Positions 4,628 through 27,500 of a DNA stretch of 34,664 nucleotides are shown here, piece by piece. Origin of the DNA: an uncultured bacterium (GTDB taxonomy: Bacteria; Patescibacteriota; Minisyncoccia; UBA6257; 2-01-FULL-56-20); the NCBI GenBank assembly GCA_963844965.1, contig CAWJQC010000003.1:1-34664 (forward strand), written 5' to 3'. The position numbers and the translations under genes are program-made. Positions within the stretch are counted from its first letter, which is position 1; each line of letters opens with the position of its first letter. The notes beneath the pieces are model-generated. The model did not search any database. It worked only from the letters and a program-made list of their open reading frames with translations, and was not told where the DNA came from.

Positions 4628-4630
4628 AAA

Positions 4631-4662
4631 AATTAACGACATCGCAAGTCGTTAATTTTTTT
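4631..4662 (+). terminator. Rho-independent terminator hairpin (aattaacgac / atcgcaa / gtcgttaatt) followed by a T7 run. It belongs to the TTAACGACATCGYAAGTCGTTAA palindrome family.
   Basis: Perfect 10-bp stem plus T-run directly after the TAA at 4625-4627. Confidence 0.6.
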
Positions 4663-4716
4663 ATAAGACCTATAGGTCCTATACGACTTATACGACCTAT
4701 AGGTCTTATAGGTCTT
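4663..4716. repeat. Tandem 8-9 bp units TATAGGTC / TATACGAC / TATAAGAC (array 1 of 5 around the 4HB gene).
   Basis: Direct reading: ataagacc tataggtcc tatacgac ttatacgac ctataggtc ttataggtc. Confidence 0.8.
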
Positions 4717-5479
4717 GTTTCTTTTTCTTCTCCCTCGCTTCTTTCAGAATTTTTTCTATCATCTCGTCGGTTTCTTTCTCAGCTTCTTTTTCTTTCGTCA
4801 AAATTTTCCTCAGCTTCTGTTCCCGCGGTTCGAAAATCGCGCCGTTTGCTTCATGCTCCGCTCTCACTGCTCTTATCTGCATGTCCAGAAGATAATTGGT
4901 TTGGTTGATAAGACAGATAAGGCAGTTTGCCGCCTCTTCGGGATTTTCAAGATAGGTCTTATAGGTCGTATAGGACTTATCAATCCTATCAATCCTATCA
5001 GTCCTATCAGTCCTATCAATCCTATCAGTCCTATCAGTCCTATCCGTCCTATCCGTCCTATCCGTCTTATAAACCAATTGCCGAACCGCAAGCGCCCTCG
5101 GGTTGTCCTTCTTCCAGATTTGGAAATTCCGCTGGCGCAGAAAATCGGAGTAATCTTCCAGCAGTTCTTCAAAGGAAGCCCGCGCGACGCCGAGAAGAAA
5201 AATTTCGGTTTTCGGCGAGTTCTTTCCGGCGGCTGCGCCCTCTACGATGTTTTGTTTTCCTGAACGTGCCGCCTGCATCATCTGGTCGCTTTGGCGCGTA
5301 AAATGATAAGTCGTATAGGTCTTATATGTCCTATCCGACCTATCCGTCTCATCGGTCTTATCCGACTTATCGAACCCGGACCCGCGGGGTTCAACGTACC
5401 GGCGGCAAAACTCCGCGGTCATGTCGCAAATTACGGTTGCCTGTTCGTAGGATTTCAAATTTTTGTAAGTGGGCGGCAT
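4706..5479 (-). CDS. Four-helix-bundle protein (PF05635-like, '23S rRNA intervening sequence protein' family) carrying two in-frame tandem-repeat insertions.
   Basis: The core reads 'QMMQAARSGKQNIVEGAAAGKNSPKTEIFLLGVARASFEELLEDY' and matches the 4HB motif 'QL.RS..S...NI.EG..R.S..EF..FL.IA.GS..E'. A 9-bp repeat GTCCTATCA x10 is translated in frame as TDRTDRTDR. Start is placed at Met33 (5479) because upstream codons lie inside a repeat array. Confidence 0.5.
   Translation of the reverse strand: MPPTYKNLKSYEQATVICDMTAEFCRRYVEPRGSGFDKSDKTDETDRSDRTYKTYTTYHFTRQSDQMMQAARSGKQNIVEGAAAGKNSPKTEIFLLGVARASFEELLEDYSDFLRQRNFQIWKKDNPRALAVRQLVYKTDRTDRTDRTDRTDRIDRTDRTDRIDRIDKSYTTYKTYLENPEEAANCLICLINQTNYLLDMQIRAVRAEHEANGAIFEPREQKLRKILTKEKEAEKETDEMIEKILKEAREKKKKQDL
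4953..5073. repeat. Tandem array of about 13 units of 9 bp (GTCCTATCA / GTCCTATCC / ATCCTATCA) plus TATAGGTC units, inside the 4HB ORF.
   Basis: Seen directly. Period 9, so the reading frame is preserved. Confidence 0.85.
5306..5376. repeat. Tandem 8-9 bp units (TATAGGTC / CTATCCGAC family), array 3, inside the 4HB ORF.
   Basis: Seen directly. Confidence 0.75.
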
Positions 5480-5500
5480 CGTTTCGGTTTTGGTTTTTTT

Positions 5501-5561
5501 ATGCGTCCCATGCGTCTTATAGGTCCTATAAGACCTATACGTCTTATAAGTCGTATAGTAG
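5501..5561. repeat. Tandem 8-9 bp units (ATGCGTCC / TATAGGTC / TATAAGAC), array 4.
   Basis: Seen directly. Confidence 0.75.
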
Positions 5562-5606
5562 ACCCGCCGGTACAACTTATCAACATCTCCAAAAACAACG
5601 GAGCAG

Positions 5607-5615
5607 TGTTAGAAT
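5607..5615 (+). promoter_or_regulatory. TGTTAGAAT extended -10-like element (one of 4 identical copies in the window).
   Basis: Exact 9-mer TGnTAnAAT upstream of the 5735 gene. The same 9-mer occurs at 9270, 9568 and 27544, each upstream of a + strand gene. Confidence 0.35.
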
Positions 5616-5654
5616 TAGAGAAAGCGGGCATCGCGGCCCGAGGTTTTTGGTATT

Positions 5655-5720
5655 AAGTCCTATGCGTCCTATAAGTTCTATTGGCCTTATAAGTCCTATG
5701 CGTCCTATAAGACCTATAAA
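5655..5720. repeat. Tandem 8-9 bp units (TCCTATGCG / TCCTATAAG), array 5.
   Basis: Seen directly. Confidence 0.75.
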
Positions 5721-9002: not shown

Positions 9003-9236
9003 CAAAGTCAAAATTCAAAAGGCAAAAGTCAAAAGTTAAAGTAAAAAATCAAAAATGAAATACTTTTTACATTTGACATGCAATTTTGACCTTTGAGTTT
9101 TAACTTTTGACATTATCTGAGCTGACTTTTGATTTTTGCCTTTTGACCCCGAGCCCTGCGTACTGAAACAAGAACGCGACGACTTTTGACATTTGACCTA
9201 TACTTTTGACTTTTGAATTTTGCCTTTTGACCTTAA
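9003..9236. repeat. Inverted arrays of the 8-mer GTCAAAAG / CTTTTGAC. There are about 6 units on the + arm (9003-9060) and about 10 on the - arm (9066-9236).
   Basis: Seen directly. A large imperfect palindrome centred near 9062, with no gene inside. Confidence 0.75.
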
Positions 9237-9361
9237 TTACCCTTGTGTATAAAAAAAACAGGTGAGTGGTGTTAGAATTATAAAAAGGGGAGGGCGTTCC
9301 CTCGGTTTTTGTTAGAAAGAGTTCGGCGGTTCCATGTTCTATGTTACATGCTTCATGTTAT

Positions 9362-9466
9362 ATGAATAAGAGAATTACATTCAGTTTGCTGATTTTTGCG
9401 GTAATTATGATTGGCGGTTTTTTGTTCGCGCCGAAGGCGCAGGCGGCGATTTCATTCGTGATATAA
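9362..9466 (+). CDS. Possible 34-aa peptide that is essentially a signal peptide (MNKRITFSLLIFAVIMIGGFLFAPKAQAAISFVI).
   Basis: ATG followed by a hydrophobic core and an AQA motif. It could be an N-terminal remnant of a surface-protein gene. Confidence 0.2.
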   Translation: MNKRITFSLLIFAVIMIGGFLFAPKAQAAISFVI

Positions 9467-9674: not shown

Positions 9675-10349
9675 GTGAACAAAACAACGGGCAGAATAAA
9701 AGAAATTGCGCGGAACAAAAAGGCAAAAATCGGGCTCTTAATCTGCGCCGTGATTGCGGCAATATTATCCGGCTACCTCATAGTCAAAGCTCTCTCGTTT
9801 GTTGATAATTTCACCACCACCAATTACGTGTCAAGCGTGTGGCACACGCAAGTGGCGACTTCTTCGGGCGTTGCCGAATTGCAGGCGAAAACTTGCAATA
9901 CTATTTCCACCTCAACCTGGTTTTGCTCCGCCACTTCCACCTCCATATGTTTGAACGACCTTGGCGACGGCGACTACATTATAGTTGCCCAAGCCGATAG
10001 CGGCCACCTGGCGTGGAAAAATGACGATACTGCCTGCTCTCGGCCGCAATGCGAGCAAGACGGCCCAGTGGACGGAAACAATCTGGTTGCCGACAACACG
10101 GTAAATTTCAGCGATTACGCGGCGCGGGCTGCCTGCCAAGCGATTGGCGGCCGTTTGCCGACGCGAAACGAATTGGGGTGCTTGTACAACAACTCATCAA
10201 CGTTCGGCGGTAACTTTGCTGCGGACTTCTACTGGTCTTCTGCCGAGGACGATGCCGCGGACGCCTACTACGTGTATTTCGCGAATGGCGGCGTGAGCAG
10301 CTACGGCAAGACCTACGCCTACTACGTCCGCTGCGTCCAAGGGTGGTAA
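9675..10349 (+). CDS. DGR target protein. It has an N-terminal membrane anchor, a Cys-rich region and a C-terminal DUF1566/FGE-like (C-type-lectin fold) domain that carries the variable repeat.
   Basis: GTG start. The C-terminus reads '...LPTRNELGCLYNN...FAADFYWSSAEDDAADAYYVYFANGGVSSYGKTYAYYVRCVQGW*', the classic DUF1566-type ending. Its last 128 nt align to the TR with A-only mismatches. Confidence 0.8.
   Translation: MNKTTGRIKEIARNKKAKIGLLICAVIAAILSGYLIVKALSFVDNFTTTNYVSSVWHTQVATSSGVAELQAKTCNTISTSTWFCSATSTSICLNDLGDGDYIIVAQADSGHLAWKNDDTACSRPQCEQDGPVDGNNLVADNTVNFSDYAARAACQAIGGRLPTRNELGCLYNNSSTFGGNFAADFYWSSAEDDAADAYYVYFANGGVSSYGKTYAYYVRCVQGW
10215..10342 (+). other. DGR variable repeat (VR).
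   Basis: 128 nt, colinear with the TR at 11061-11188 with no indels. There are 14 mismatches, all at positions where the TR has A (TR AAC codons read as TTC, GAC, TAC, AGC or GGC in the VR). A shared GC-rich 3' end 'cgtccgctgcgtccaagg' could be the IMH (initiation of mutagenic homing) element. Confidence 0.85.
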
Positions 10350-10392
10350 GATTTGGAATTTGGGCATTTGAGGATTTGTGGATTGGGTTGTA

Positions 10393-10460
10393 GTTGGTAG
10401 CTTGTAGCTGGTAGGTAGTAGGGAATTCCTACAAGCTAAAAAGCTACAAGCTAAAAAGCT
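10393..10460. repeat. Hairpin-forming repeat (GTAGCTTGTAGCTGGTAGG ... CTACAAGCTAAAAAGCTACAAGCTAAAAAG) on the left flank of the 4HB gene.
   Basis: 'agcttgtag' and 'ctacaagct' are reverse complements around gaattc. A similar copy sits on the right flank. Confidence 0.7.
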
Positions 10461-10462
10461 GA

Positions 10463-10825
10463 ATGAAAATAAATTCATATACAGACCTGATTGTTTGGCA
10501 AAAAGCAGTTGATTTAGTTGTGGAAGTTTATAATCTGACTGAGAAATTTTCCAAAAGCGAACTTTTTGGTCTAACTTCACAAATGAGACGGGCAGCAGTT
10601 TCTATTCCGTCTAATATTGCCGAGGGCAGGAGGAGAGGAACAAGAAAAGATTTTTGCCATTTTTTGGTTATCGCTTTTGGTTCAGGAGGAGAATTGGAAA
10701 CCCAAATAATAATTGCCAAGAAACTAAACTTTATAAAAATAGGCGAGTATTCAAAGGTCGATTTGTTATTAGACGAGGTTATGCGCATATTGAACGTCAT
10801 GATTCATAACCTGCAGGTTCATTAG
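10463..10825 (+). CDS. Four-helix-bundle protein (PF05635 / '23S rRNA IVS protein' family).
   Basis: 'DLIVWQKAVDLVVEVYNLTEKFSKSELFGLTSQMRRAAVSIPSNIAEG...ELETQIIIAKKL' is a near-consensus member. Confidence 0.8.
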   Translation: MKINSYTDLIVWQKAVDLVVEVYNLTEKFSKSELFGLTSQMRRAAVSIPSNIAEGRRRGTRKDFCHFLVIAFGSGGELETQIIIAKKLNFIKIGEYSKVDLLLDEVMRILNVMIHNLQVH

Positions 10826-10885
10826 CTGGTAGGTCGTAGCCTGTAGGAATTTACAAGCTAAAAAGCTACTAGCTACAAACTAATT
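10826..10885. repeat. Right-flank copy of the GGTAGG...CTACAAGCTAAAAAGCTAC hairpin repeat.
   Basis: ctggtaggtcgtagcctgtaggaatttacaagctaaaaagctactagctacaaac. Confidence 0.7.
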
Positions 10886-11060
10886 CGGCCGGAGTCTTTA
10901 ATCACGCAGCGGCTCAAGCCGCGCGGGTTAAAGAGAGTTTGCTGATATAAACCACGATTTCGCCGCCCCGTTAGGGAGCTGTGAATGTTGGGCTAAACTA
11001 ACAGGGCATTGTTGGCAAGCAGCTGTTTTACGGCTGCTGAGACAGTCCAGCGCGAAATAT

Positions 11061-11188
11061 TTTGCTGCGGACAACTACTGGTCTTCTGCCGAGAACGATG
11101 CCGCGAACGCCTACAACGTGAATTTCACGAATGGCGGCGTGAACAACAACAACAAGACCAACGCCAACTACGTCCGCTGCGTCCAAGG
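11061..11188 (+). other. DGR template repeat (TR).
   Basis: AAC-rich (reads as AADNYWSSAENDAANAYNVNFTNGGVNNNNKTNANYVRCVQG*). Every difference from the VR is at a TR adenine. Confidence 0.85.
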
Positions 11189-11227
11189 TTGATTTATAAA
11201 AGCGAAAATCGCCGATATTTCAAAAAA

Positions 11228-11584
11228 ATGCGCAACACCGAGCGATTGCCTCTTTATCACAAGACATACGGACTAATCAAGCATTTATACGGCGTGATCA
11301 GGAGCTTTCCCAAGGAATATAAATATTCTATGGGGAGCGAAATCATGAATCTTTCGTGGAAATGCCTTGACCTTATTATTGAAGCGAACGCCTACCCCAA
11401 TGCTCAAAAGAGCGTGAAAGTCGCCGAATTAAGCGCGGCATACGATAAATTAAAAATGCGGCTGCGGATGAGCCAGGAAATCAACCTGACATCAGCCGGC
11501 CAATTCGCTCATCTTGAAGAAAATTACATGCTGGAAATAGGGAAAATGATTGGCGGCTGGAAAAAATGGGCGGGGGCAGAATAA
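11228..11584 (+). CDS. avd: Avd (DGR accessory variability determinant).
   Basis: About 118 aa, placed between TR and RT. It matches the bAvd pattern (Y..L..L..V.R.FPK.YKY..G..I....W.CLDLII.A...K.......LS...D.L...LR......I......H.E...LEIGKMIGGWKK) and has the C-terminal GGW motif. Confidence 0.7.
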   Translation: MRNTERLPLYHKTYGLIKHLYGVIRSFPKEYKYSMGSEIMNLSWKCLDLIIEANAYPNAQKSVKVAELSAAYDKLKMRLRMSQEINLTSAGQFAHLEENYMLEIGKMIGGWKKWAGAE

Positions 11585-11620
11585 ATTTCTAATTTCTAAT
11601 TGACCTAATTGATTTAAATA
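11584..11620. repeat. Left inverted-repeat arm (aatttctaatttctaattgacctaatt...) of a MITE-like element.
   Basis: Its reverse complement recurs at 11863-11900. The same family, without cargo, is at 28797-28887. Confidence 0.65.
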
Positions 11621-11833
11621 ATGTTCAATTCCAAAATCCCAAACAAAGATAAATATGATTTGGAAGAAAGAACCGCAAAATTCGGCGAAGAAGTTATCAG
11701 ATTTTGCCAAGAATTGCCCCAAAATGAAATAACCAGACCGATAATAAATCAGCTGATAAAATGCGCAAAATTATGGGTTGAAGCCAAAGAGTTAAATCTG
11801 ATTTTCAACGCAATCAACAATAAATTGAAATGA
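11621..11833 (+). CDS. Truncated 4HB-family gene fragment (N-terminal two-thirds only).
   Basis: 'YDLEERTAKFGEEVIRFCQELPQNEITRPIINQLI' matches the 'FDLEERL..FA..II.L...LPK......I..QL.RS' N-terminus of 4HB proteins. It lacks the C-terminal helices. Confidence 0.4.
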   Translation: MFNSKIPNKDKYDLEERTAKFGEEVIRFCQELPQNEITRPIINQLIKCAKLWVEAKELNLIFNAINNKLK

Positions 11834-11862
11834 CGCTTTTGGTTATTGGGATTTAGGATTTA

Positions 11863-11900
11863 TTTAGGTCAATTAGAGCAATTAGAATAATTAGAAATTA
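11863..11900. repeat. Right inverted-repeat arm (tttaggtcaattagagcaattagaataattagaaatta).
   Basis: Its reverse complement matches the left arm at 11584-11620. Confidence 0.65.
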
Positions 11901-11903
11901 CCC

Positions 11904-13040
11904 ATGGCCATCTTCACCTATGAAAACCTGTATCGCGCGTATCTTGACTGCCGGCGCAATAAAAGAAAAACGATTAACGCGCTGAAATTTGAGATTGATT
12001 TAGAAAAGAATTTGTCTTTACTGCTTGAAGAATTAACGAGCCGTCGATACCAGCCAGGCCGCTCGATTTGTTCGTGGTCAAATATCCCCAGCCGCGGGAA
12101 ATATTCGCGGCTGATTTCCGCGACAGGATAGTGCACCATCTGCTGGTCGGCCAAATTCTGGCCGAAAGCGAAAAAAGCTTTTTTTACAACAGTTTCGCTT
12201 GCCGCAAAGGAAAAGGTACGCACAAGGCGGTCGGACTTTTGAGAAGATACCTGAAAAGCGCTTCCAGAAGCGGAAAAGAGAAAATATTTTACCTGCAATT
12301 GGATATCGGAAGTTTTTTCGTGTCAATCCGGCACCGCGTTTTATTTTCCATTTTCAGCGAATTTGTCGGCAAATTGAACCGGACCGAAGAATGGAAACAA
12401 GAAATTTTATGGCTGGCTGAAAAAATCATTTTTTACGAACCAGCCAAAAATTGCGAAATAAGAGGCGATAAGAGCTTGCTCGCGCTGATACCGCCGCACA
12501 AGTCGCTTTTTAACGCGCCGCCAGAACGGACTGCCGATTGGCAATTACACCTCGCAATTTTTCGCCAATATGTATCTGAACCGATTGGATTATTTCACCA
12601 AGCAGACGCTTAAGGAAAAATTTTATATCAGATATGTTGACGACATTGTGATTTTAGGAAAAAGCGCCGGCGCGCTTAAAGGTCTGATTCCCGAAATTAA
12701 CAGGTTTTTGAAAAAAGAATTGGAGATTGAACTGAATCTTGACAAGATCAAGTTCAAAAACGTTTCGGCGGGCATAGATTTTCTGGGCTATTTTGTGAAG
12801 CCGGATTACACGCTTGTCCGCCGCCGGGTGGTTAAGAATTGCAAGGAAAAAATCCGCCCTGCCCCCGAAGTTTCGAAAAAATTGGTCTCGCAAGCCAATT
12901 CTTATCTGGGGCATTTTATCCACGCCGCGAGCTACGGATTGAGAAAAATGATTTCAGAGAGGTTAATCAAAGCGGACAATTCTATACATTTTAGCAATGG
13001 CTATAAATCGATATTCGCAATAATTGGCGGGCAAAGAAAA
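11904..13040 (+). CDS. DGR-type reverse transcriptase. It is frameshifted (frame 0, then +2 near 12065, then back to 0 near 12520) and read through in frame into the downstream surface-protein gene.
   Basis: It carries these DGR-RT motifs:
- 'YQPGRSI / FVVKYPQPREIFAADFRDRIVHHLL'
- 'SFACRKGKGTHKAV'
- 'IFYLQLDIGSFF'
- 'GLPIGNYTSQFFANMYLNRLDYF' (found in frame 0)
- 'YIRYVDDIVILG' (the YxDD box)
- C-terminal 'SQANSYLGHFIHAASYGLRKMI'. Confidence 0.8.
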
Positions 13041-14975
13041 ATAATCAAAACGGCGGTTGCCGCGGCAGTTCTGCTCGCGGGCTTTTCGTTTGCTCATTCC
13101 GCCTCCGCCGCTTATTTCAAGACCGGCTCTTTGGTTTCCGCTAACCTCTTGGACGGCTTGACCAACGTCGGCGCGATTACCCAATTTAACGCCACAACTT
13201 CCATCGCGGCGGGCACTTCGGTAAGCGTCCAATTTTCCCGCAATAAACTTACCTGGTACAGCGCCTCCGGCACGGCGTTCGCCACAAGTTCGCTTTCGGA
13301 CGGCGCGAACAGCATTGACTTGTCGGCGTTGGGGTGGACCGGCCCGATTTTTTATTACAAGCTGCAATTCGCGACGAATGATTCAAGCATCACTCCGACT
13401 GTATCGGGCGTGGCCGTGAATTACAATTACAGCTCCGGACCGACGTACGAGTATTTCGGGCAAGGGTCTTTGGTTTCCGCCAATGTGCTTGACGGTCATA
13501 CGGACGTCGGCGCAATTACCGGATTTTCCGCTTCAACTACCGTGCCGGCCAGCACGACAATAACAGTCCAGTTTTCGCGCGACAAATTGGTTTGGTACAA
13601 CCATTCCGGCGTGGCGTACGCCGAAGACAGCTTGTCCAACGGCTCCAATGTCGTTAATTTGTCCGCTTTGAATTGGACCGGTCCGCTGATTTATTATAAA
13701 TTGCATTTTACCACAAGCGATGTCGGCCAGACGGCGGCTATTTCATCGGCCGAGATTGATTATTCAGCCGGTTCCGGCTCGGTATATTTCAAGCAAGGAA
13801 CATTGGTTTCAACAAATCTTTTGGCTGGCGGAGGGACGCTTAGCGGAAACGAATTGTTCGGCTATAACATTTCTTCTTTGCCTTCTGGAACAACGGTTCA
13901 GGTCCAATTCAGCACCAGTAGCGCCAATTGGTTCAGTTCCACTGGCACCGCTTGGGCGTGGGACACCTTGTCCAGCGGCAGCCACCTTACCGCTTCAACC
14001 GCGATTAACTTGTCCGCGCTTGGCTGGACCGGCGCCAGTTTTTATTACAAATTAGAATTCACAACGACTGATGCCGGCACAACTCCGACAGTCGCTCAAA
14101 TATCGCTCTTTACGCCGGGAGCGCTGCCCATCGTTACGGTTCTGATGACGGTCGTCTCAAGCAGCGCTCCCATCGTATCCGCCGTATCGGTGAACGGCGG
14201 CAATTCCATCACGCTCACGCCCGCGACAACGACCCCGATCAGCGTCAATTTCACGGTTACGGATTATTCCGGCTGTTCAAACGTTTTCACGAGCGGCAAC
14301 GTTACGACCACGCTTTACCGCATGGGCGTCGGGAGTTCGTGCGTGGCGGACAACCGCAACTGCTACAGGACTTCCTCGCAAACCAACAATTGCTCGGGCA
14401 GCGGTGCCAACGCCACGGCAACTTTGAATCTTTACTATTTCGCCGATTCCACCGGCAGCCAATCGCCGACCTCAAGTTATCCATCCGACCACTGGCAGGC
14501 CTATGTGCAGGCGCTGGACGGGACGGCGAACGCCACGGGCACCGCCACGTCAACCGTGAACGACGTTAATGTCTTGACGGCCATCACCGTTACAACTTCT
14601 TCCATCAACTACGGCACGATGTCGCCGAATGCGACGACCTCGGCCGCGAGCGACCAGCTCGCGACCGTGCAGAACGTCGGCAATTCGTCCACGACTTTGA
14701 AAATTTCCGGCACGGCGCTCGTAATGTCCTCGCCTTACGACGCGTTCGCAACGTCCAGCCAGCATTACGCCACATCCACTTTCCAGTGGAACGCCAGCGG
14801 CCCGGAGCAGCAACTTCAGCAAACACAAACAACGGTTCCGGGATTTTCTCTGACTACCCCCACCTCCACGAGTGCCGTGAGCGGTAACACTTATCGGGGC
14901 GTGCAAATTCCCGGCAGCGCGCAAAGCGGCGTGCACGTGGGGATGATAACGTTCAGCTCAAATTGGAGCCAATAA
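13041..14975 (+). CDS. Secreted surface protein with three tandem repeats of about 100 aa and the shared C-terminal domain. The start is uncertain because there is no canonical in-frame start codon.
   Basis: A signal-peptide-like 'KIIKTAVAAAVLLAGFSFAHSASA' is followed by three units of 'YFKxGSLVSxNLLDG...VQFS..KL.WY..SG.A.....LS.GSN...LSAL.WTGP..YYKL.FTT.D'. The tail is 'VSAVSVNGGN...DNRNCY...LYYFADSTGSQSPTSSYP...TVQNVGNSSTTL...QHYATSTF...WSQ*'. Confidence 0.55.
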   Translation: MIKTAVAAAVLLAGFSFAHSASAAYFKTGSLVSANLLDGLTNVGAITQFNATTSIAAGTSVSVQFSRNKLTWYSASGTAFATSSLSDGANSIDLSALGWTGPIFYYKLQFATNDSSITPTVSGVAVNYNYSSGPTYEYFGQGSLVSANVLDGHTDVGAITGFSASTTVPASTTITVQFSRDKLVWYNHSGVAYAEDSLSNGSNVVNLSALNWTGPLIYYKLHFTTSDVGQTAAISSAEIDYSAGSGSVYFKQGTLVSTNLLAGGGTLSGNELFGYNISSLPSGTTVQVQFSTSSANWFSSTGTAWAWDTLSSGSHLTASTAINLSALGWTGASFYYKLEFTTTDAGTTPTVAQISLFTPGALPIVTVLMTVVSSSAPIVSAVSVNGGNSITLTPATTTPISVNFTVTDYSGCSNVFTSGNVTTTLYRMGVGSSCVADNRNCYRTSSQTNNCSGSGANATATLNLYYFADSTGSQSPTSSYPSDHWQAYVQALDGTANATGTATSTVNDVNVLTAITVTTSSINYGTMSPNATTSAASDQLATVQNVGNSSTTLKISGTALVMSSPYDAFATSSQHYATSTFQWNASGPEQQLQQTQTTVPGFSLTTPTSTSAVSGNTYRGVQIPGSAQSGVHVGMITFSSNWSQ

Positions 14976-14983
14976 TCTTAAAA

Positions 14984-15036
14984 TTAACGACATCGTAAGT
15001 CATTAATTAATAATTAACGATGTCGTAAGTCGTTAA
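14984..15036. repeat. Two REP-like palindromes (TTAACGACATCGTAAGTCATTAA and TTAACGATGTCGTAAGTCGTTAA) between convergent genes.
   Basis: Seen directly. They are the same family as the hairpin at 4631-4657 and the palindrome at 15752-15774. Confidence 0.75.
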
Positions 15037-15722
15037 TCGAGCGAAACGTTTTTGACCTCTTCTATTTCAATATCCTTAAGCCACTGTTTTATATTTTTTT
15101 CGTATTCCGCGGGGCCGCCGAAAAATTTCATAAGAAATTCTCTATTAGTAACCGACGGAAAATTTTTCTTGCCGAGATAATCAAGGTGGCTTGACCAGCG
15201 GTAATTATCCAAGAATTTCATCGCTTCTCTATGGTTCTTGATCTCGCGTTCGCGCCATTCCGGCGCCGCGAGGTCCAGCGGGTTCACGTGTATGTAATAG
15301 GGGATATGGTTGAAATGCGATTCGTTCTTTATCACCATGGATTTGTACCTGCCTTCAAATAACGTCCCCTTCCTTTCGTATTTCTGATTGAAATATTTTG
15401 CGTATCCCACGTTGATTTTTTTCATAAACGCCGTGATAGCTCCATCCGTGCGCGGGGAAAGAAGGAGATGATAGTGGTTGGGCATTAGACAAAACGCGTA
15501 TATATCAACCAAGAGTTTTCTTGGTTCTCTTGGCTTTGATTTGCCGCCAATATAACGACTTGCGACATCGTTAGATTGGTTGAATCTATAAAAAGCGTTA
15601 TTTACCCTGTTTTGGTCGTTAAATTCAAAAAGATCGTGGATAAACCTCAAATAATCCTGTTTATCAAGGAAGATTTTGCGTTTATCCACGCCCCTGTTCA
15701 GTGTGTGGTAGACATCAGCCAT
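15033..15722 (-). CDS. REP-associated tyrosine transposase (RAYT), a Y1 HUH transposase of the IS200 type.
   Basis: HuH motif 'CLMPNHYHLLL', then 'GAITAFMKKINVGYAKYFNQKYERKGTLFEGRYKS', then 'YYIHVNPL'. REP-like palindromes flank it on both sides. Confidence 0.7.
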   Translation of the reverse strand: MADVYHTLNRGVDKRKIFLDKQDYLRFIHDLFEFNDQNRVNNAFYRFNQSNDVASRYIGGKSKPREPRKLLVDIYAFCLMPNHYHLLLSPRTDGAITAFMKKINVGYAKYFNQKYERKGTLFEGRYKSMVIKNESHFNHIPYYIHVNPLDLAAPEWREREIKNHREAMKFLDNYRWSSHLDYLGKKNFPSVTNREFLMKFFGGPAEYEKNIKQWLKDIEIEEVKNVSLD

Positions 15723-18167: not shown

Positions 18168-18237
18168 ATTAACGAGTTAACGAGTTAACGGGTTTTTTGT
18201 TATTTTTATAACTCGTTAACCCTTTAACTCGTTAACT
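18168..18237. repeat. GTTAAC-based palindromic repeats (TTAACGAGTTAACGAGTTAACGGG ... AACTCGTTAACCCTTTAACTCGTTAAC).
   Basis: Inverted copies that could form a terminator-like hairpin. The family recurs at 20720-20888, 21541-21612, 23915-23975 and 27419-27500. Confidence 0.7.
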
Positions 18238-18355: not shown

Positions 18356-19330
18356 ATGAAATTGCGAAATAAAACTTTTTTGCCGTCGCTCGTCGCATTT
18401 GCGCCAGCTTTTTCTATTTTCTATTTTCTATTTTCTATTTTCTACCCGGTATACGCGGACAATAGCGTCAACGTCAGCACGACATTTGTTTTGGCTCCGA
18501 CAACGATCGTTCTCACCCAAAACTCGTACAGATGGTATGACAATATAGATGCCCTGACCCCCAGTAATCCGCTTACCGCTGGGGAAAGTTCTCCGACCTC
18601 AACGCCGGCAGGCGGGACAGTCCTGCGTTTGCGGATGAACATAGTGGACAGCGGCCTTGGCATTGGCGCCGGAGCAACCTTCAAGCTTCAATACGCGAAT
18701 TCCACATCTGGAAGCTGGACCGATATCAGCACGTCCACCGCTTGGGTTCTTTACGATAATCCCTCGGTTGCCGATGGGCAGGTAATAGTCACGACAGTTT
18801 TGGCTAGTTCTAACATGGGGGAAAGTTACTGTGAGTCAAATCCGACTGCGGCAATGCCAAGCCCGATACTCCAGGGGCAAAGCGGGGAGTGGGATTGGGT
18901 GGTCGCCAATAATTACGCCGACACGGCGAGCAACTGGTTTTTCCGGATGGTCTATTCTTCAAGCACGGAGCTTGATAACTATTCTGGCTATCCGGAATTA
19001 ACCGCGGTGGTGCCTCCATCCCCGCCGACGCCGCCCGCTCCGTCCGGCGGAGGGGGCGGGGGAGTAGTGGGCGTGGGGGCTGGTCAAACATTGTTGCCAA
19101 GCCAGCCCGCGACCACGACGCCGTACCTGCCGATTCCGCCGCCCTTCGTCCCGCCCGCAATGCAGTGCATTGACTATAACGGCGACAACCGCGTTGACAT
19201 GATTGACCTATCCATTCTGCTCTATCATTACGGCGAAACCGGCCCGGATATCGGCTGTTTTGATTTGAATCACGACGGCATTGTGGATTTCCCGGATATT
19301 TCCATTCTGATGTATTATTGGACTTCGTAA
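18356..19330 (+). CDS. Secreted protein with a jelly-roll-like central domain, a Pro/Gly-rich linker and a C-terminal dockerin-like domain of 2 EF-hand-like repeats.
   Basis: Signal peptide. Dockerin pattern 'CIDYNGDNRVDMIDLSILLYHYG...CFDLNHDGIVDFPDISILMYYW'. The central domain (RLRMNIV...FKLQYANSTSGSW...NWFFRMV) is homologous to the protein encoded at 3-480 of this window. Confidence 0.55.
   Translation: MKLRNKTFLPSLVAFAPAFSIFYFLFSIFYPVYADNSVNVSTTFVLAPTTIVLTQNSYRWYDNIDALTPSNPLTAGESSPTSTPAGGTVLRLRMNIVDSGLGIGAGATFKLQYANSTSGSWTDISTSTAWVLYDNPSVADGQVIVTTVLASSNMGESYCESNPTAAMPSPILQGQSGEWDWVVANNYADTASNWFFRMVYSSSTELDNYSGYPELTAVVPPSPPTPPAPSGGGGGGVVGVGAGQTLLPSQPATTTPYLPIPPPFVPPAMQCIDYNGDNRVDMIDLSILLYHYGETGPDIGCFDLNHDGIVDFPDISILMYYWTS
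18410..18444 (+). repeat. Heptanucleotide repeat TTTTCTA x5 inside the signal-peptide coding region.
   Basis: Seen directly. It encodes FSIFYFLFSIFY. A 7-bp unit is not a multiple of 3. Confidence 0.85.
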
Positions 19331-20719: not shown

Positions 20720-20888
20720 GTTAACGAGTTAACTTCTTTTCTTAACCGGTTGGTCGGTTATTGCGGTTAACGAGTTCGCGAGTTAACGAGTTAAAATCCA
20801 AACCCGTTAACTCGTTAACACGTTAACTCGCCAACTACATAACTGTTTGTTCGATAAATTAAACTCGTTAACACGTTAACTCGTTAAT
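20720..20888. repeat. Cluster of GTTAACGAGTTAAC-type palindromic repeats, about 10 units in both orientations.
   Basis: Seen directly. Fills the whole intergenic region upstream of sodA. Confidence 0.75.
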
Positions 20889-20914: not shown

Positions 20915-21538
20915 ATGAAATTCGAATTACCAAAGTTGCCGTACGCATATGACGCGCTTGAGCCATTTATAGATGCGCGAACAATGGAGCTGCACCATGC
21001 CAAACATCATCAGACCTATGTTACCAAGCTAAACGAAGCCATGGCGAAGCATCCCGAACTGGAAACGCCGAGTTTGGAAAAATTGCTTCAGTCGCTGGAT
21101 AGCGTTCCCGCAGATATTCGCACTGCCGTGCGGAATCACGGTGGCGGCCACTATAACCACTCGTTTTTCTGGAGGGTGATGGCGCCGCATTCCGAAAAAA
21201 GCGATAAGCCGCAAAACGGCGGACTTGCCGAAAAAATCGAAAAAACATTCGGCAGCTTCGCAAAATTCAAAGAAACTTTCAGTTCGGCAGCCGCCGGCGT
21301 TTTCGGCAGCGGCTGGGCGTGGCTCGTTTCCGATCCATCGGGTAAATTATCTATCACGACAACGCTGAATCAAGATAGCCCGATCGTGAGCGGCCTCAAG
21401 CCATTGCTTTGTCTTGACGTCTGGGAACACGCCTATTACCTGAAATATCAAAACCGCAGGTCCGAGTACATTGAAGCGTGGTGGAGTGTCGTGAACTGGG
21501 AACAGGTTAATAAGAACCTTAACGAATTAATCGATTAA
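20915..21538 (+). CDS. sodA: Fe/Mn superoxide dismutase.
   Basis: '[29 protein letters not shown]', 'GSGWAWL' and '[15 protein letters not shown]...VVNW' are hallmark SOD motifs. Confidence 0.9.
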
Positions 21539-21540
21539 AG

Positions 21541-21612
21541 AGTTAACGAGTTCACGAGTTAACGGGTTAAAATATCAAACAACTCGTTAACACGTTAATA
21601 AACAACCCGTTA
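21541..21612. repeat. GTTAACGAG palindromic repeats downstream of sodA.
   Basis: agttaacgagttcacgagttaacgggtt ... aactcgttaacacgttaat ... cccgttaattcattaacg. Confidence 0.7.
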
Positions 21613-21683
21613 ATTCATTAACGTGGCCACTTGTTTGGATTGGACAGATTATGGCTTGTTCACAGCAAGAGCGGCGCCCTTAG

Positions 21684-23898: not shown

Positions 23899-23914
23899 CC
23901 GAACTAATTAAAGG

Positions 23915-23975
23915 ATTAACGGATTAACGCATTAACGGATAATAATTCGTTAATTCGCAATTCGTTAATAAGAAA
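23915..23975. repeat. ATTAACGGATTAACGCATTAACGG / TTCGTTAATTCGCAATTCGTTAAT inverted repeats.
   Basis: Seen directly between convergent genes. Confidence 0.65.
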
Positions 23976-23994
23976 TTAGTCAATCCGTGCTGGC

Positions 23995-24855
23995 TTAAAG
24001 TGATTTTGGGCGTCCGCCTTCCTCTTGTATTATTTTGAGCGCAAGTTTACCGTTTTGGATTTCAGCTTCCAGAAGCTTGATTCGTTTCCCGTTTTTCATT
24101 GTCCAAACGCCGGGCTCAGGGTTCAGCGCCCGGATCCTCCTTTCAATTGCCGCAACTTTTTCCGAACTCGCGCCATTCACGGCCTCGTTGAGGTCGCTTT
24201 CGGCGACGAAGGCGTCGGCTGTCGCAAATTTTTTCGTGTATGTCGCTTCCGCCTCATTCTGTGGTCGTGGCTTGATCTCTCCCGCCAGGAATTTTGGCAG
24301 TGTTTCAACCAGCAGGTTGCCACCCAATTCTGCCAGTTTTTCAAGGAGAGTTGGAAATTGGAAATTGGAAATTGGAAATTCCAATTCTCGCTGCGCGAGA
24401 ATTGGCCCATGGTCAACTTTTTCGTCCAAAATATACAACGTGACGCCGGTTTCTTTATCGCCCTCCAGTATGGCGGTTTGGATAGGGGATGAACCGCGGT
24501 GTTTGGGAAGGAGCGACGGATGGACGCCCACCACGCTGCGCGGAAAAGCGGCGATTATTTCCGCGGGGATTATCTTGGCGTAGGCGGCGACAACCGCGAA
24601 GTCCGGTTTGGAAATTGGTAATTGGTAATTGGAAATTGACAAAACTTCCGGCTGCAATATCGGAATGTTATATTTTTGCGCCAAAAGTTTCGTGGGTGGC
24701 GGCGTTATGATTTCCTTCCTCCCGACTGGTCGGTCGGGATTGCAAACCACGGCCGCAGGCGGCATTCCGGCGTCAGTCAGCTTTTGCAAAATTATAGCGG
24801 CAAATTCGGGTGTGCCGAAGAATACGAAATTGGGCTTACGAAAATACGAAATCAT
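23995..24855 (-). CDS. fmt: Methionyl-tRNA formyltransferase.
   Basis: 'FFGTPEFA', 'VVCNPDRPVGRK', 'HPSLLPKHRGSSPIQTAILEGDKETGVTLY' and 'KLAELGGNLL'. The N-terminal 9 aa and two internal 7-aa stretches are encoded by tandem 7-mer arrays. Confidence 0.85.
   Translation of the reverse strand: MISYFRKPNFVFFGTPEFAAIILQKLTDAGMPPAAVVCNPDRPVGRKEIITPPPTKLLAQKYNIPILQPEVLSISNYQLPISKPDFAVVAAYAKIIPAEIIAAFPRSVVGVHPSLLPKHRGSSPIQTAILEGDKETGVTLYILDEKVDHGPILAQRELEFPISNFQFPTLLEKLAELGGNLLVETLPKFLAGEIKPRPQNEAEATYTKKFATADAFVAESDLNEAVNGASSEKVAAIERRIRALNPEPGVWTMKNGKRIKLLEAEIQNGKLALKIIQEEGGRPKSL
24353..24380. repeat. GGAAATT x4 inside fmt.
   Basis: Seen directly. Translated as 'PISNFQFP' on the - strand. Confidence 0.85.
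24610..24637. repeat. GGAAATT-GGTAATT-GGTAATT-GGAAATT inside fmt.
   Basis: Seen directly. Translated as 'SISNYQLPIS'. Confidence 0.85.
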
Positions 24856-24871
24856 ACGAAAGTACGAAACT
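24821..24871. repeat. TACGAAA(A/T/G) x5 array spanning the fmt start and the GxxExxY stop.
   Basis: Seen directly. Confidence 0.8.
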
Positions 24872-25313
24872 AGCGAATGTTGATAATTCTTTTGTATTTC
24901 ACGCCCGACCTCGTGAATCTTGCCAAAATTCCCAATTTTAAACCAGTAGCCTTTAGATAGTTATACAGTTGATCGATGTCACGCTTGTTAAATGTATTGC
25001 CCTGCTTTATTTCCAAAACAATCTTTCCGTCAATCAAAAAATCTAAATAATTTGTGGCGATAAATTTATCGCGATAGCATATTTTTACAGGCAATTCTCG
25101 CTTAAAATTCAGACCCACGCCCTTAAAAGCAACTTCGATTGCTCTTTGATATTGGTTTTCTCTGTAGCCGTAGCCGAGTTGCAAGAAAATATCAAAAAGA
25201 ACCCCAACGATTTGGTAACTTAATTCAGGATATATTAAGTCTGGCTTGTAGACCCTACCCCTTTTCGTATTTTCGTACATTTTCGTATTTTCGTATGTTG
25301 CTTGCTTTGTCAA
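24870..25313 (-). CDS. GxxExxY protein (PD-(D/E)XK superfamily) inserted between def and fmt.
   Basis: 'LSYQIVGVLFDIFLQLGYGYRENQYQRAIEVAF...KIVLEIKQG' contains G-YR-E-NQ-Y. The ORF opens with TTG at 25313, and the first ATG (about 25280) lies inside the TTTCGTA repeat array. Confidence 0.6.
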   Translation of the reverse strand: MTKQATYENTKMYENTKRGRVYKPDLIYPELSYQIVGVLFDIFLQLGYGYRENQYQRAIEVAFKGVGLNFKRELPVKICYRDKFIATNYLDFLIDGKIVLEIKQGNTFNKRDIDQLYNYLKATGLKLGILARFTRSGVKYKRIINIR

Positions 25314-25764
25314 TGAACAGCACTCCGTTCAGATGGTCCATTTCATGCTGAAAAACCCTGGCCAGAAGTCCCCAGGCCTTGATTTTGAGGCGCTTGCCGT
25401 TTTTATCGTAGCCGGAGAGGGTCACCCGCCCGGGGCGCTCAACCGCGCCGTAAGTCAAAGGAACGCTGAAGCACCCTTCTTCCAGCGGCACCTTTTCGCC
25501 GCTTGTTTTTTCTATCGCGGGGTTGAAAATGGCGTAGAACTTATTGCTGCCGTCGCGGTCAGGCACTTCGGCTACAAAAAATCTGAGATCAAGGCCGATC
25601 TGGTTCGCCGAAAGCCCGACGCCGCTTGCCGCGCGCATTTCTTTTTTCATGCGAGCAATAAGTTCGTTGATCTCTTTCTTTGTAAATTTATTGAAATCAA
25701 AATTTTCCGTCGCGCGTCTCAAGATTTTTTCGTCCTTTTTATTGTCGGTCCTCAAAATATTCAT
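25255..25764 (-). CDS. def: Peptide deformylase.
   Basis: 'GVGLSANQIG', 'EGCFSVP' and 'QHEMDHLNGVLFIDK'. The last ~15 aa (SNIRKYENVRKYEKG) are repeat-derived. Confidence 0.85.
   Translation of the reverse strand: MNILRTDNKKDEKILRRATENFDFNKFTKKEINELIARMKKEMRAASGVGLSANQIGLDLRFFVAEVPDRDGSNKFYAIFNPAIEKTSGEKVPLEEGCFSVPLTYGAVERPGRVTLSGYDKNGKRLKIKAWGLLARVFQHEMDHLNGVLFIDKASNIRKYENVRKYEKG
25260..25297. repeat. TTTTCGTA x4-5 array (the reverse complement of the TACGAAAA array).
   Basis: Seen directly. It overlaps the def 3' end and the GxxExxY 5' end. Confidence 0.8.
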
Positions 25765-27418: not shown

Positions 27419-27500
27419 GCGGGTTAACGCGTTTAAAGAGTTAACGAGTTTAGAAATTCACAACCCGTTAACGCATTAACTCGTTAACTATATAATCGGT
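27419..27500. repeat. GGTTAACGCG ... GTTAACGAG ... CCCGTTAACGCATTAACTCGTTAAC palindromic repeats.
   Basis: Seen directly. Confidence 0.7.

What the first reader, a model, noticed from the sequence alone, without database searches (positions are those of the whole stretch)
24353..24637. Two perfect 4 x 7-bp tandem arrays inside fmt replace native sequence without changing protein length
GGAAATT x4 (24353-24380) and GGAAATT/GGTAATT x4 (24610-24637) lie inside the Fmt ORF. They encode 'PISNFQFP' and 'SISNYQLPIS'.

Aligned by eye to E. coli Fmt, the repeat-encoded stretches replace segments of the same length (about the 'ITAEDTSG' and 'RPQENQQLV' positions) rather than adding residues.

This looks like the coding sequence being overwritten by repeat units (gene-conversion-like), rather than simple insertion. 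It is an unusual fate for a housekeeping gene.
Basis: partly seen in the sequence, partly recalled or inferred. Interest (0 to 1): 0.5.

Follow-up and report, generated by a model that had tools for sequence, protein, structure and literature searches.

The report
Heptamer micro-arrays written into fmt loops
Two ~30-base runs of a repeated 7-base unit really do stand in for native residues in two surface loops of an intact formyltransferase gene, and this turns out to be common in this group of ultra-small bacteria (Patescibacteria), where the same kind of mini-repeat sits in frame inside many housekeeping genes.

Summary
TT(GGAAATT)4 lies at 24351-24380 and is perfect. GGAAATT-GGTAATT-GGTAATT-GGAAATT lies at 24608-24638 and has two variant units. 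Both are inside an intact fmt gene (23995-24855, minus strand). They code E159-T169 and S73-K83.

Neither array adds length relative to solved Fmt structures. The site-2 segment is 22 aa in nearly all bacteria examined.

This is not a one-off. In 120 Patescibacteria Fmt homologues, peptides that match a translated heptamer array occur only at these two positions. The units and orientations differ between lineages, and 44 homologues carry the same ISNFQF stretch.

(GGAAATT)n arrays also sit in frame in LeuRS, TsaD, TrmD, GatA, GuaA, LepA, RecG and UvrD. They are no rarer in ORFs than random 28-mers. Some are length-neutral and others are net insertions of 3 to about 24 aa.

Best reading: a lineage-wide DNA-level process, slippage-type reiteration of AT-rich heptamers, filtered by reading frame and loop tolerance, with arrays born, decaying and being overwritten. 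Conversion from another array is not excluded. I found no function and no published description.

The parts
23995..24855 (-). fmt, methionyl-tRNA formyltransferase, 286 aa, intact
   Evidence: Scores 214.2 bits on TIGR00460 (cutoff 201.5). Matches Pfam Formyl_trans_N (E 6e-34) and Formyl_trans_C. PDB Fmt hits reach E 8e-46. The AF2 model has mean pLDDT 89.8.
24351..24380 (-). Array A (protein site 2). On the + strand it reads TT(GGAAATT)4. On the coding strand it reads (AATTTCC)4AA, a 30-nt exact period-7 run coding E159-T169 (EFPISNFQFPT)
   Evidence: (x4.3, 100%). In the AF2 model it lies in the coil between strand 152-158 and helix 167-190. It aligns to E. coli CPITAEDTSG without added length.
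24608..24638 (-). Array B (protein site 1). It reads GGAAATT GGTAATT GGTAATT GGAAATT on the + strand and codes S73-K83 (SISNYQLPISK)
   Evidence: x4.4, 91%; 93% identical to array A. It is the lowest-confidence internal block of the AF2 model, pLDDT 73, mostly coil. It aligns to E. coli LRPQENQQLVAE and is 2 residues shorter.
24381..24607 (-). 227-nt stretch between the two direct arrays. It codes the conserved catalytic core (residues 84-158, including HPSLLPKHRG)
   Evidence: The invariant columns H112, P113, S114, L116, P117, R120, G121, D144 and D148 of alignment A1 fall here. No array-like peptide occurs here in any of the 120 homologues.
24837..24869 (.). (TACGAAAA)x3.9 array. It is the left arm of a 33-nt inverted repeat and overlaps the fmt start, coding MISYFRK
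   Evidence: inverted repeat I1 (88% complementary to 25263-25295). The same unit sits at the same place in L204 and L205.
24870..25313 (-). GxxExxY / PD-(D/E)XK_3 gene cassette sitting between def and fmt
   Evidence: PF13366 E 3e-26; TIGR04256 E 1e-26. The cassette is present in L204 and L205 and absent in L201, L202 and L203, where def and fmt are adjacent.
25262..25296 (.). (TTTTCGTA)x4.1 array. It is the right arm of the inverted repeat and codes the C-terminal tail of Def (NIRKYENVRKYEKG)
25255..25764 (-). def, peptide deformylase, upstream partner of fmt
   Evidence: PF01327 E 2e-46.

Best explanation
The two arrays belong to a Patescibacteria-wide class of roughly 30-nt heptanucleotide micro-arrays, typically four units plus 2-6 nt of the next unit.

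Proposed mechanism:
1. An AT-rich heptamer flanked by a few bases of microhomology is reiterated at the DNA level, by slipped-strand or microhomology-primed re-copying.
2. Inside genes only products that keep the reading frame survive. Three added units (+21 nt) is the smallest such step, which gives 4.3 copies.
3. Only products in loops that tolerate a foreign decapeptide survive. In Fmt just two surface loops qualify.
4. Loop length there is constrained (22 aa at site 2), so surviving alleles carry the array in place of native residues. This would happen through an accompanying or later deletion.
5. Arrays are born perfect, decay by point mutation, and are overwritten by new arrays with other units or the opposite orientation.

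The arrays are passengers. Fmt stays functional, and the coded peptide (a rotation of FPISNFQ) is a by-product of the DNA repeat.

Shown here: the arrays; the net replacement; the two hot spots; the turnover of units; DNA-level rather than protein-level identity; the excess of 4-unit arrays in ORFs; the AT-richness of the units; the spread across many genes.

Inferred: slippage as the generating step, the deletion step, and neutrality.
For: 1. Clade-wide hot spots. In 120 homologues (57-70% identity), 10-aa windows matching at least 9/10 of a translated heptamer array occur only at reference positions 70-89 (82 windows) and 150-169 (87 windows).
2. Many units and both orientations at the same sites. 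L001 has AAATTCG and AATTTCC. L007 has GAATTAT, ATAATTC and AATTATG. L202 has AAATGGG x5. L203 has GGAAATT in the opposite orientation at site 1 and TCAAGYG x4 over the other half of site 2.
3. Patchy distribution. The ISNFQF stretch is in 44/120 homologues and needs at least 22 changes on a tree built with the sites masked. The window's nearest relatives lack it.
4. DNA-level identity. Among identical amino acids, 9/10 codons match in the array against 36-37% elsewhere (window vs L001 and L100), binomial P = 9e-4.
5. A continuum from perfect to decayed arrays. Site-2 best match out of 10 is 10 in 17 homologues, 9 in 26, 8 in 27, 7 in 17.
6. Array lengths follow 7n+m with m = 2-6. In ORFs the 4-unit class outnumbers the 3-unit class 100 to 32. 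Outside ORFs the counts are 15 and 14 (Fisher P = 0.013).
7. Period 7 dominates the tandem repeats in these loci, 309 of 924 TRF arrays. Units are AT-rich, GC 0.28 against 0.44 for their loci, and lower in 155/183 cases.
8. Native codons supply seeds. KLEIG is coded by AAATTGGAAATTGG, and EFPI by GAATTTCCAATT.
9. Site 1 varies by 7-aa steps among homologues: 12 vs 19 aa and 15 vs 22 aa.
10. Other genes. The same arrays lie in frame in LeuRS, TsaD, PrmC, GatA, TrmD, GuaA, LepA, RecG, UvrD, MiaA and the CCA-adding enzyme. They are in ORFs of at least 150 aa 81% of the time, against 83% for random 28-mers. Net length effects range from 0 to about +24 aa.
11. Published context. Heptamer SSR excess has been attributed to the polymerase footprint favouring slippage (Rehm et al. 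2015, PMC4692102, citing Mrazek 2007).
Against: - At site 2 no homologue shows the predicted intermediates. None of the roughly 170 Fmt sequences examined has a 15-aa form, and only one or two are near 29 aa (P0012, L027). A one-step length-neutral event would explain this more simply.
- Three-unit arrays (+14 nt, out of frame if purely inserted) are still common in ORFs, 32 of 153.
- Arrays within one locus share the identical unit in 18/156 pairs more than 150 bp apart, against 1.4% of random pairs. This hints at copying between sites.
- Intergenic heptamer arrays of Xanthomonas and Nostoc also prefer four units although no reading frame applies (PMC4692102).
- Members of 90%-identity clusters show no copy-number change, so no slippage event was actually observed.
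Confidence: 0.5

Rival explanations
1. Patch conversion or template switching. During replication or repair the nascent strand pairs with another array of the same unit, nearby or elsewhere in the genome. It copies about 20-30 nt and returns in register. This overwrites the recipient without changing its length. One fmt array would have seeded the other.
For: - Net length neutrality at both fmt sites, in LeuRS (gapless against 2v0c) and in GuaA.
- No shortened or lengthened intermediates at site 2.
- The two fmt arrays have the same unit, the same 30-nt extent (4 units + AA) and the same orientation, 229 nt apart.
- Same-unit arrays cluster within loci, 11.5% of pairs against 1.4% at random, in direct and inverted orientation.
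- P0072 has site 2 converted to the unit of its own site 1, whereas its near relatives P0057 and P0109 do not.
- L203 carries the same unit inverted at site 1.
Against: - The window holds no donor other than the two arrays themselves.
- The arrays share no homology outside the periodic part.
- Across 26 distinct Fmt unit pairs, site 1 and site 2 are no more alike than shuffled pairs (P = 0.70 direct, P = 0.23 inverted).
- Many arrays elsewhere are net insertions of 3 to about 24 aa.
- The 4-unit excess specific to ORFs points to a frame filter, which a length-neutral patch would not need.
Confidence: 0.22
2. The arrays are functional cis elements in DNA or mRNA. Candidates are a binding site for a protein that reads four phased heptamers, a recombination or pairing site, a translational pause, or a switch that turns fmt off by gain or loss of one unit (phase variation). 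On this view selection maintains them.
For: - Arrays persist at the same two gene positions across Fmt proteins down to about 40% identity (L013, L049, L069).
- Many arrays remain perfect although synonymous sites around them are saturated.
- Four units are also preferred in intergenic heptamer arrays of other phyla (PMC4692102).
- The TACGAAA(A) x4 arrays flanking the GxxExxY cassette keep both unit and copy number in three genomes.
- In L001, L007 and L202, sites 1 and 2 are near-complementary and could pair.
Against: - Unit sequence and orientation at a given site differ freely between lineages. In the window the two arrays are direct repeats, so they cannot pair.
- The single heptamer is not enriched outside the arrays.
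- Arrays fall in ORFs as often as random positions do, and in unrelated genes.
- No frameshifted or copy-number variants occur in 90%-identity clusters.
- Essential genes such as leuS cannot be phase-variable.
- No Rfam family matches anywhere in the window.
Confidence: 0.1
3. Protein-level selection. The decapeptide (FPISNFQFP or similar) is a useful loop for Fmt, and the DNA periodicity follows from codon choice.
For: LEFPISNFQF is shared by 44 homologues at the same place.
Against: - Codons are identical at 9/10 positions although synonymous sites elsewhere are only about 37% identical.
- The same DNA array in the opposite orientation gives an unrelated peptide (LEIGNWK) at the same site in L203.
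- The same peptide appears in unrelated proteins and structural contexts.
- Other units give quite different peptides at the same site.
Confidence: 0.03
4. Assembly or sequencing artefact in a metagenome-assembled contig.
For: Read support could not be examined. Short tandem repeats can be mis-assembled.
Against: - Both arrays keep the fmt frame open.
- Identical arrays at identical codons occur in independent assemblies from other projects (L001, L100, L069).
- 120 further metagenome contigs carry the same array inside long ORFs.
Confidence: 0.02

Closest known systems
Prokaryotic heptanucleotide simple sequence repeats: cyanobacterial STRR heptamers, GGGAATC arrays of Xanthomonas, GGGGA(T/C)T arrays of Nostoc (Rehm et al. 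2015, PMC4692102, citing Mrazek 2007 and the Calothrix report)
   Same: Head-to-tail 7-nt units. Period 7 is over-represented relative to other periods. About four units are preferred. Arrays are often inverted pairs next to gene ends, which also holds for the intergenic arrays of this window.
   Different: The known arrays are G-rich with proposed G-quadruplex formation. They are intergenic and under-represented in coding regions. The arrays here are AT-rich and cannot form G4. They lie in the middle of conserved housekeeping ORFs, no rarer there than random positions. Many units replace one another at fixed protein sites.
Rickettsia palindromic elements (RPEs): selfish DNA inserted in frame in protein-coding genes (summarised in PMC10969869)
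   Same: Repetitive DNA sits in frame inside unrelated housekeeping genes, at positions compatible with the fold. The coded peptide is a by-product of the DNA element.
   Different: RPEs are about 150-bp palindromic MITE-like elements of defined families that add 30-50 residues. The elements here are about 30 nt of tandem heptamers, with no palindrome or terminal repeats. The units are highly diverse. In fmt there is no net insertion.
Contingency loci: phase-variable SSRs inside ORFs (Lin & Kussell 2012, PMC3315296; Haemophilus and Neisseria literature)
   Same: The tandem unit inside an ORF is not a multiple of three, so a one-unit change would shift the frame.
   Different: Contingency SSRs sit near the 5' ends of surface, restriction-modification or virulence genes and vary in copy number between close strains. 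The arrays here are mid-gene in essential translation genes, always in frame, and show no copy-number variants in 90%-identity clusters.
Diversity-generating retroelement variable regions
   Same: A defined stretch of coding sequence is rewritten with no change in length. A complete DGR is present in this same window.
   Different: DGR rewriting needs a template repeat, adenine-specific changes and a 3' initiation site in a dedicated target gene. The fmt arrays have no template copy and no A-specific pattern. They are periodic rather than copies of a template.

Membership tests
Methionyl-tRNA formyltransferase (host gene) | Scores above the curated cutoff of the equivalog model and has both the N- and C-terminal formyltransferase domains | tested here: met
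   TIGR00460 214.2 bits against a cutoff of 201.5. PF00551 117.7 bits and PF02911 33.7 bits, both above gathering.
Methionyl-tRNA formyltransferase (host gene) | Conserved catalytic core (the HPSLLP..RG motif and the downstream Asp) is intact and the ORF is uninterrupted | tested here: met
   H112, P113, S114, L116, P117, R120, G121, D144 and D148 are invariant in A1 and present in the window protein. The ORF is a single 286 aa.
Heptanucleotide SSR (STRR / Xanthomonas-Nostoc type) | Head-to-tail tandem copies of a 7-nt unit, typically about four units | tested here: met
   TRF reports x4.3 (100%) and x4.4 (91%). The modal exact run is 30-34 nt across 153 ORF arrays.
Heptanucleotide SSR (STRR / Xanthomonas-Nostoc type) | Intergenic location, under-represented in coding regions | tested here: not met
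   Both arrays are mid-ORF. (GGAAATT)n arrays lie in ORFs of at least 150 aa in 81% of cases, against 83% for random 28-mers.
Heptanucleotide SSR (STRR / Xanthomonas-Nostoc type) | G-rich unit able to form a G-quadruplex with four units | tested here: not met
   The unit GGAAATT has two G's. Mean unit GC is 0.28.
Contingency locus (phase-variable intragenic SSR) | Copy number varies between closely related strains and switches the reading frame | tested here: not met
   Ten clusters of at least 90% identical Fmt proteins show only point changes in the arrays, with no indels of a unit and no truncated products attributable to them. The sample is small and no reads were examined.
Contingency locus (phase-variable intragenic SSR) | Located near the 5' end of surface, virulence or restriction-modification genes | tested here: not met
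   The arrays are at codons 73-83 and 159-169 of fmt. Other hosts are LeuRS, TsaD, TrmD, GuaA and similar genes.
RPE / MITE-type in-frame selfish element | Discrete element of about 100-150 bp with terminal inverted repeats or palindromic structure, and dispersed copies alike over their full length | tested here: not met
   The shared sequence is limited to the 30-nt periodic run, with no flanking similarity or inverted termini.
RPE / MITE-type in-frame selfish element | Adds residues to the host protein (net insertion) | tested here: not met
   Fmt is 0 to 2 residues shorter than E. coli Fmt at both sites. Arrays in TrmD, TsaD, LepA and an IscS-like protein are net insertions.
DGR variable region | A template repeat elsewhere that differs from the variable region almost only at template adenines | tested here: not met
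   No second copy of the fmt segments exists in the window. The window's DGR has its own pair, VR 10215-10345 and TR 11061-11191, with 14 of 15 differences at TR adenines.
Gene conversion from a dispersed repeat family | A donor copy plus flanking homology that defines the converted tract | tested here: inconclusive
   The window holds no donor beyond the two arrays themselves and no flanking homology. The rest of the genome is unknown, and same-unit arrays do cluster within loci elsewhere.

The most novel reading that the evidence does not exclude
Patescibacteria have a distinctive DNA synthesis or repair activity that writes short phased heptamer tracts of about 30 nt into the chromosome. 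Candidates are reiterative gap filling or strand-switch copying. In length-constrained loops it overwrites coding sequence in one step. Its effect would be a template-free generator of surface-loop diversity across the housekeeping proteome. It may be linked to the array-flanked GxxExxY and four-helix-bundle cassettes that fill the same genomes.
Probability: 0.15. Interest if true: 0.85.

Novelty: new variant of a known kind. Interest (0 to 1): 0.6.

Why it matters
[quoted passage not shown] The heptamer arrays described so far are intergenic (PMC4692102).

Here a whole bacterial radiation tolerates, or keeps generating, frame-preserving heptamer arrays inside essential translation genes. They recur at the same loops, and the units turn over.

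If confirmed, this has several consequences:
- It marks a strong lineage-specific mutational process that shapes protein surfaces in organisms with tiny genomes.
- It explains many odd low-complexity peptides in Patescibacteria annotations, such as FPISNFQFP, LEIGNWKLE and NSKFEIRNSKF.
- It warns that such stretches are not homology signals in alignments or phylogenies.
- It offers natural markers of permissive loops in conserved enzymes.
- It shows that the four-unit preference of heptamer arrays does not need G-quadruplexes.

Tried and rejected
- Source contig look-up for P0001 returned nothing on record.
- Seven literature searches found no description. One used the peptide and DNA strings themselves.
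- Uptake-signal idea: the single heptamer GGAAATT is not enriched outside the arrays. Rejected.
- Known RNA: no Rfam family reaches its gathering score anywhere in the window.
- DGR link: the window's DGR has its own TR/VR pair, and the fmt arrays show no template copy or A-specific pattern. Rejected.
- Recombination import of the site-2 region: a sliding comparison of P0001 with array-bearing and array-free homologues gave no clear switch of nearest relatives. Inconclusive.
- Concordance of site-1 and site-2 units within Fmt proteins is not different from shuffled pairs. Pairing or copying between the two sites is therefore not a general rule.
- Copy-number polymorphism within 90%-identity clusters: none seen.
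- Purely protein-level selection is rejected by the codon identity and by the opposite-orientation array in L203.
- Simple net insertion is rejected for fmt.
- Intrinsic length neutrality of the process is rejected by TrmD, TsaD, LepA and the IscS-like protein.

Full report
**What is there**

The window is a complete 34,664-bp contig: the exact-match protein P0001 has a longest contig of that length. Homologue names place it in the Patescibacteria, near the Liptonbacteria, Brennerbacteria, Jorgensenbacteria and Wolfebacteria lineages.

ORF 23995-24855 on the minus strand is methionyl-tRNA formyltransferase.
- It scores above the TIGR00460 cutoff and has both Pfam domains.
- It has strong PDB matches.
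- Its AlphaFold model has mean pLDDT 89.8.

Inside it, TT(GGAAATT)4 occupies 24351-24380 as a perfect 30-nt period-7 run. GGAAATT-GGTAATT-GGTAATT-GGAAATT occupies 24608-24638 and is 93% identical to the first.

Simulated sequences of the same composition never produced a period-7 run of 21 nt or more; the longest was 19 nt in 300 simulations.

On the coding strand both arrays read (AATTTCC)n. They code EFPISNFQFPT (residues 159-169) and SISNYQLPISK (73-83). A 7-nt array gives the same cyclic heptapeptide in every frame, so the two peptides are rotations of each other.

**Replacement, not insertion**

HMMER alignments to solved Fmt structures place both stretches against native residues. The window protein is 0 to 2 residues shorter there.

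The site-2 segment, from the DHG motif to the K-L-A of the following helix, is 22 aa in almost every bacterium sampled. That includes Dehalococcoidia, Syntrophales and others. It is 23 aa here and 22-24 aa in other array-bearing Patescibacteria.

In the model both stretches are coil between conserved secondary-structure elements. They have the lowest internal confidence.

**It is a clade-wide pattern**

Alignment of homologues at 57-70% identity showed the same LEFPISNFQF stretch in many of them. At the other site it showed heptad-periodic peptides of other kinds: NSKFEIRNSKF, KWEMGNGKWEM, GNWKLEIG and KYKIQNTKY.

DNA from related loci confirms that these are heptamer arrays of about 4.3 units.

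| Locus | Site 1 | Site 2 |
|---|---|---|
| L001 | AAATTCG | AATTTCC |
| L007 | ATAATTC | AATTATG (plus GAATTAT at a further site upstream of site 1) |
| L010 | none | AATTTTC |
| L202 | AAATGGG x5 | AATTCCC |
| L203 (closest syntenic relative) | GGAAATT, opposite orientation to the window | TCAAGYG x4 over the first half of the 22-aa segment; native NDTYE kept |

The window keeps the native ILAQRELE and has its array over the second half of that segment.

I scanned all 120 homologues for 10-residue windows matching at least 9/10 of the translation of any heptamer array. Hits occurred only at reference positions 70-89 and 150-169.

The ISNFQF state is present in 44/120 homologues. It needs at least 22 changes on a neighbour-joining tree built with the sites masked, though that tree is weakly resolved. 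Match quality runs continuously from 10/10 down to background. Together this looks like repeated birth, decay and overwriting at two permissive loops.

**It is a DNA-level phenomenon**

Between the window and L001 or L100 (63-66% amino-acid identity), identical residues use the same codon in 36-37% of cases across the gene. Within the array the figure is 9 of 10 (P about 9e-4).

The same unit in the opposite orientation gives an unrelated peptide at the same site in L203.

**It is not confined to fmt**

Only two of those were fmt. Most of the others lie inside long ORFs in both orientations.

Pfam identifies the hosts as LeuRS, an IleRS-type synthetase, TsaD, PrmC, GatA, TrmD, GuaA, LepA, RecG, UvrD, MiaA, the CCA-adding enzyme, a cysteine desulfurase, glycosyltransferases and others. 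Four contigs carry the array at the same LeuRS hairpin.

These arrays lie in ORFs of at least 150 aa as often as random 28-mers do, 81% against 83%.

Alignment to solved structures gives both kinds of outcome.

| Protein | Net length effect |
|---|---|
| LeuRS | 0, gapless against T. thermophilus 2v0c |
| GuaA | -2 |
| GatA | +3 |
| TsaD | +9 |
| TrmD | +14 |
| IscS-like | about +14 |
| LepA | about +24 |

Length neutrality is therefore a feature of constrained loops, not of the process itself.

Period 7 is by far the commonest tandem-repeat period in all the Patescibacteria loci examined. Fmt loci of other phyla have almost no such arrays.

**Clues to mechanism**

- Array lengths are quantised as 7n+m with m = 2-6. 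In ORFs the 4-unit class (30-34 nt) has 100 arrays and the 3-unit class has 32. Outside ORFs the counts are 15 and 14 (Fisher P = 0.013). This is expected if one original unit plus three added units (+21 nt) is the smallest frame-preserving product of reiteration primed on a few bases of microhomology.
- Units are AT-rich, 0.28 GC against 0.44 for their loci. This fits easy local melting.
- Conserved native codons supply seeds. KLEIG is coded by AAATTGGAAATTGG and EFPI by GAATTTCCAATT.
- Site 1 differs by 7-aa steps among homologues.

Against a simple insertion history:
- Site 2 shows no shortened or lengthened intermediates.
- Three-unit arrays do occur in ORFs.
- Arrays within one locus share the identical unit eight times more often than random pairs.

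These points keep a template-switch or conversion mechanism alive. That mechanism is not general for the two fmt sites, because their units are no more alike than shuffled pairs. No event was caught in the act: members of 90%-identity clusters differ only by point changes in the arrays.

**Comparison with what is known**

Excess heptamer SSRs, a four-unit preference and a polymerase-footprint slippage hypothesis have been reported. [quoted passage not shown]

Surveys find SSRs suppressed in the middle of proteins (PMC3315296).

Rickettsia palindromic elements are the classic repetitive DNA found in frame inside housekeeping genes. They are about 150-bp palindromic insertions (PMC10969869).

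Searches for Patescibacteria tandem repeats, and for the peptide and DNA strings themselves, found nothing.

I therefore class this as a new variant of a known kind: heptanucleotide SSRs that are here AT-rich, intragenic, frame-filtered and recurrent at fixed loops across a radiation.

**Verdict**

- The 'overwritten, not inserted' reading is right as a description of fmt.
- 'Unusual for a housekeeping gene' is wrong for this lineage.
- 'Gene conversion' is unproven.
- My preferred mechanism, slippage-type reiteration plus frame and fold filtering with turnover, gets about 0.5. Patch conversion gets about 0.2, a functional element about 0.1, and protein-level selection or artefact get little.

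Noticed in passing
window 9675-14975: A complete diversity-generating retroelement. The variable region (10215-10345) lies at the C-terminus of an Lcl_C-domain protein (9675-10349). The template repeat is at 11061-11191, 89% identical, with 14 of 15 differences at template adenines. An Avd-like ORF ends at 11584. The reverse transcriptase appears split into 12068-12613 and 12570-14975, and the longer ORF carries about 340-nt internal repeats (13113-14092).
   Followed up: partly
window 24837-25296; L204 3702-4019; L205 3534-4019: A GxxExxY (PD-(D/E)XK_3, TIGR04256) gene sits between def and fmt. It is bracketed by 33-nt inverted arms made of four TACGAAA(A) units. These arms also code the Def C-terminus and the Fmt N-terminus (MISYFRK). 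Two other genomes carry the same cassette with the same unit, truncated in L204. In L201-L203 it is absent and def and fmt are adjacent. It looks like an intervening-sequence-type cassette inside an operon.
   Followed up: partly
window 4662-5719: About 1 kb is packed with 9-bp tandem arrays (TATAGGTCT, TATCAGTCC x10.3, TATCCGACT, GTCCTATAA, TAAGTCCTA). They lie in and around a degenerate four-helix-bundle (23S rRNA IVS protein) ORF that also has the 'four helix bundle suffix' domain, 4706-5575 (-). Similar TATAAG-type 9-mers flank a 23S_rRNA_IVP gene in L205 (456-506). Repeat unit type may go with cassette type.
   Followed up: partly
window 4628-4665, 14978-15037, 18169-18237, 20766-20887, 21519-21621, 23907-23977, 27441-27489: Gene ends carry a stereotyped hairpin built on TTAACGA(G/C)...(C/G)TCGTTAA. 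It is often expanded into inverted 8-bp arrays of up to 11 units. TTAACGA is the most over-represented non-GC heptamer in the window. A 30-nt x2 copy of the motif abuts an IS200-like / REP-associated tyrosine transposase-like ORF (15033-15722, minus strand). This suggests a REP/RAYT-type system whose stems have been tandemly multiplied.
   Followed up: partly
window 18410-18444: A perfect (TTTTCTA)x5 array (35 nt) lies in frame near the N-terminus of a dockerin-domain ORF (18356-19330). It is the only other intragenic heptamer array in this window.
   Followed up: no
window 9004-9231 and 9329-9364: Three long imperfect AAAGTCA / TTTTGAC / GACTTTT arrays (7-9 units) lie in alternating orientation at and after the end of the 1107-aa Kelch-repeat ORF, followed by a GTTCCAT array. 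A similar AAAGTCA/TGACTTT pair occurs in L038.
   Followed up: no
window 10350-10460: A stack of different 7-8-bp arrays (GATTTGG, GGTGGTA/GTAGCTG, CTACAAG/AAGCTAAA) lies immediately upstream of a strong four-helix-bundle (23S_rRNA_IVP, E 9e-39) gene at 10463-10825. That gene sits between the DGR target gene and the Avd gene.
   Followed up: no
window 1080-1618: A 172-bp tandem repeat (3.2 copies, 73% matches) lies in the Kelch-repeat protein region at the left end of the contig. It is probably coding-repeat structure rather than an SSR.
   Followed up: no
proteins P0059/P0123 (cluster 1) and P0009/P0150 (cluster 9): Within 90%-identity Fmt clusters, P0123 carries a C-terminal part typical of another lineage (P0023/P0025-like), suggesting recombination. 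P0150 differs from P0009 by the MISYFRK N-terminus and by a 21-aa insertion in the C-terminal linker, a third variable site.
   Followed up: no
metagenome loci L091, L096, L134, L186: Four contigs with GC from 0.32 to 0.55 carry (AATTTCC)4 at exactly the same LeuRS hairpin (SEGA..[EK]FPISNFQFP[IN]). Three of them continue .VFTTRPDT; L134 reads KSQNSNS... after the array instead. L096 is gapless against T. thermophilus LeuRS. This is a second hot spot like the two in fmt.
   Followed up: partly
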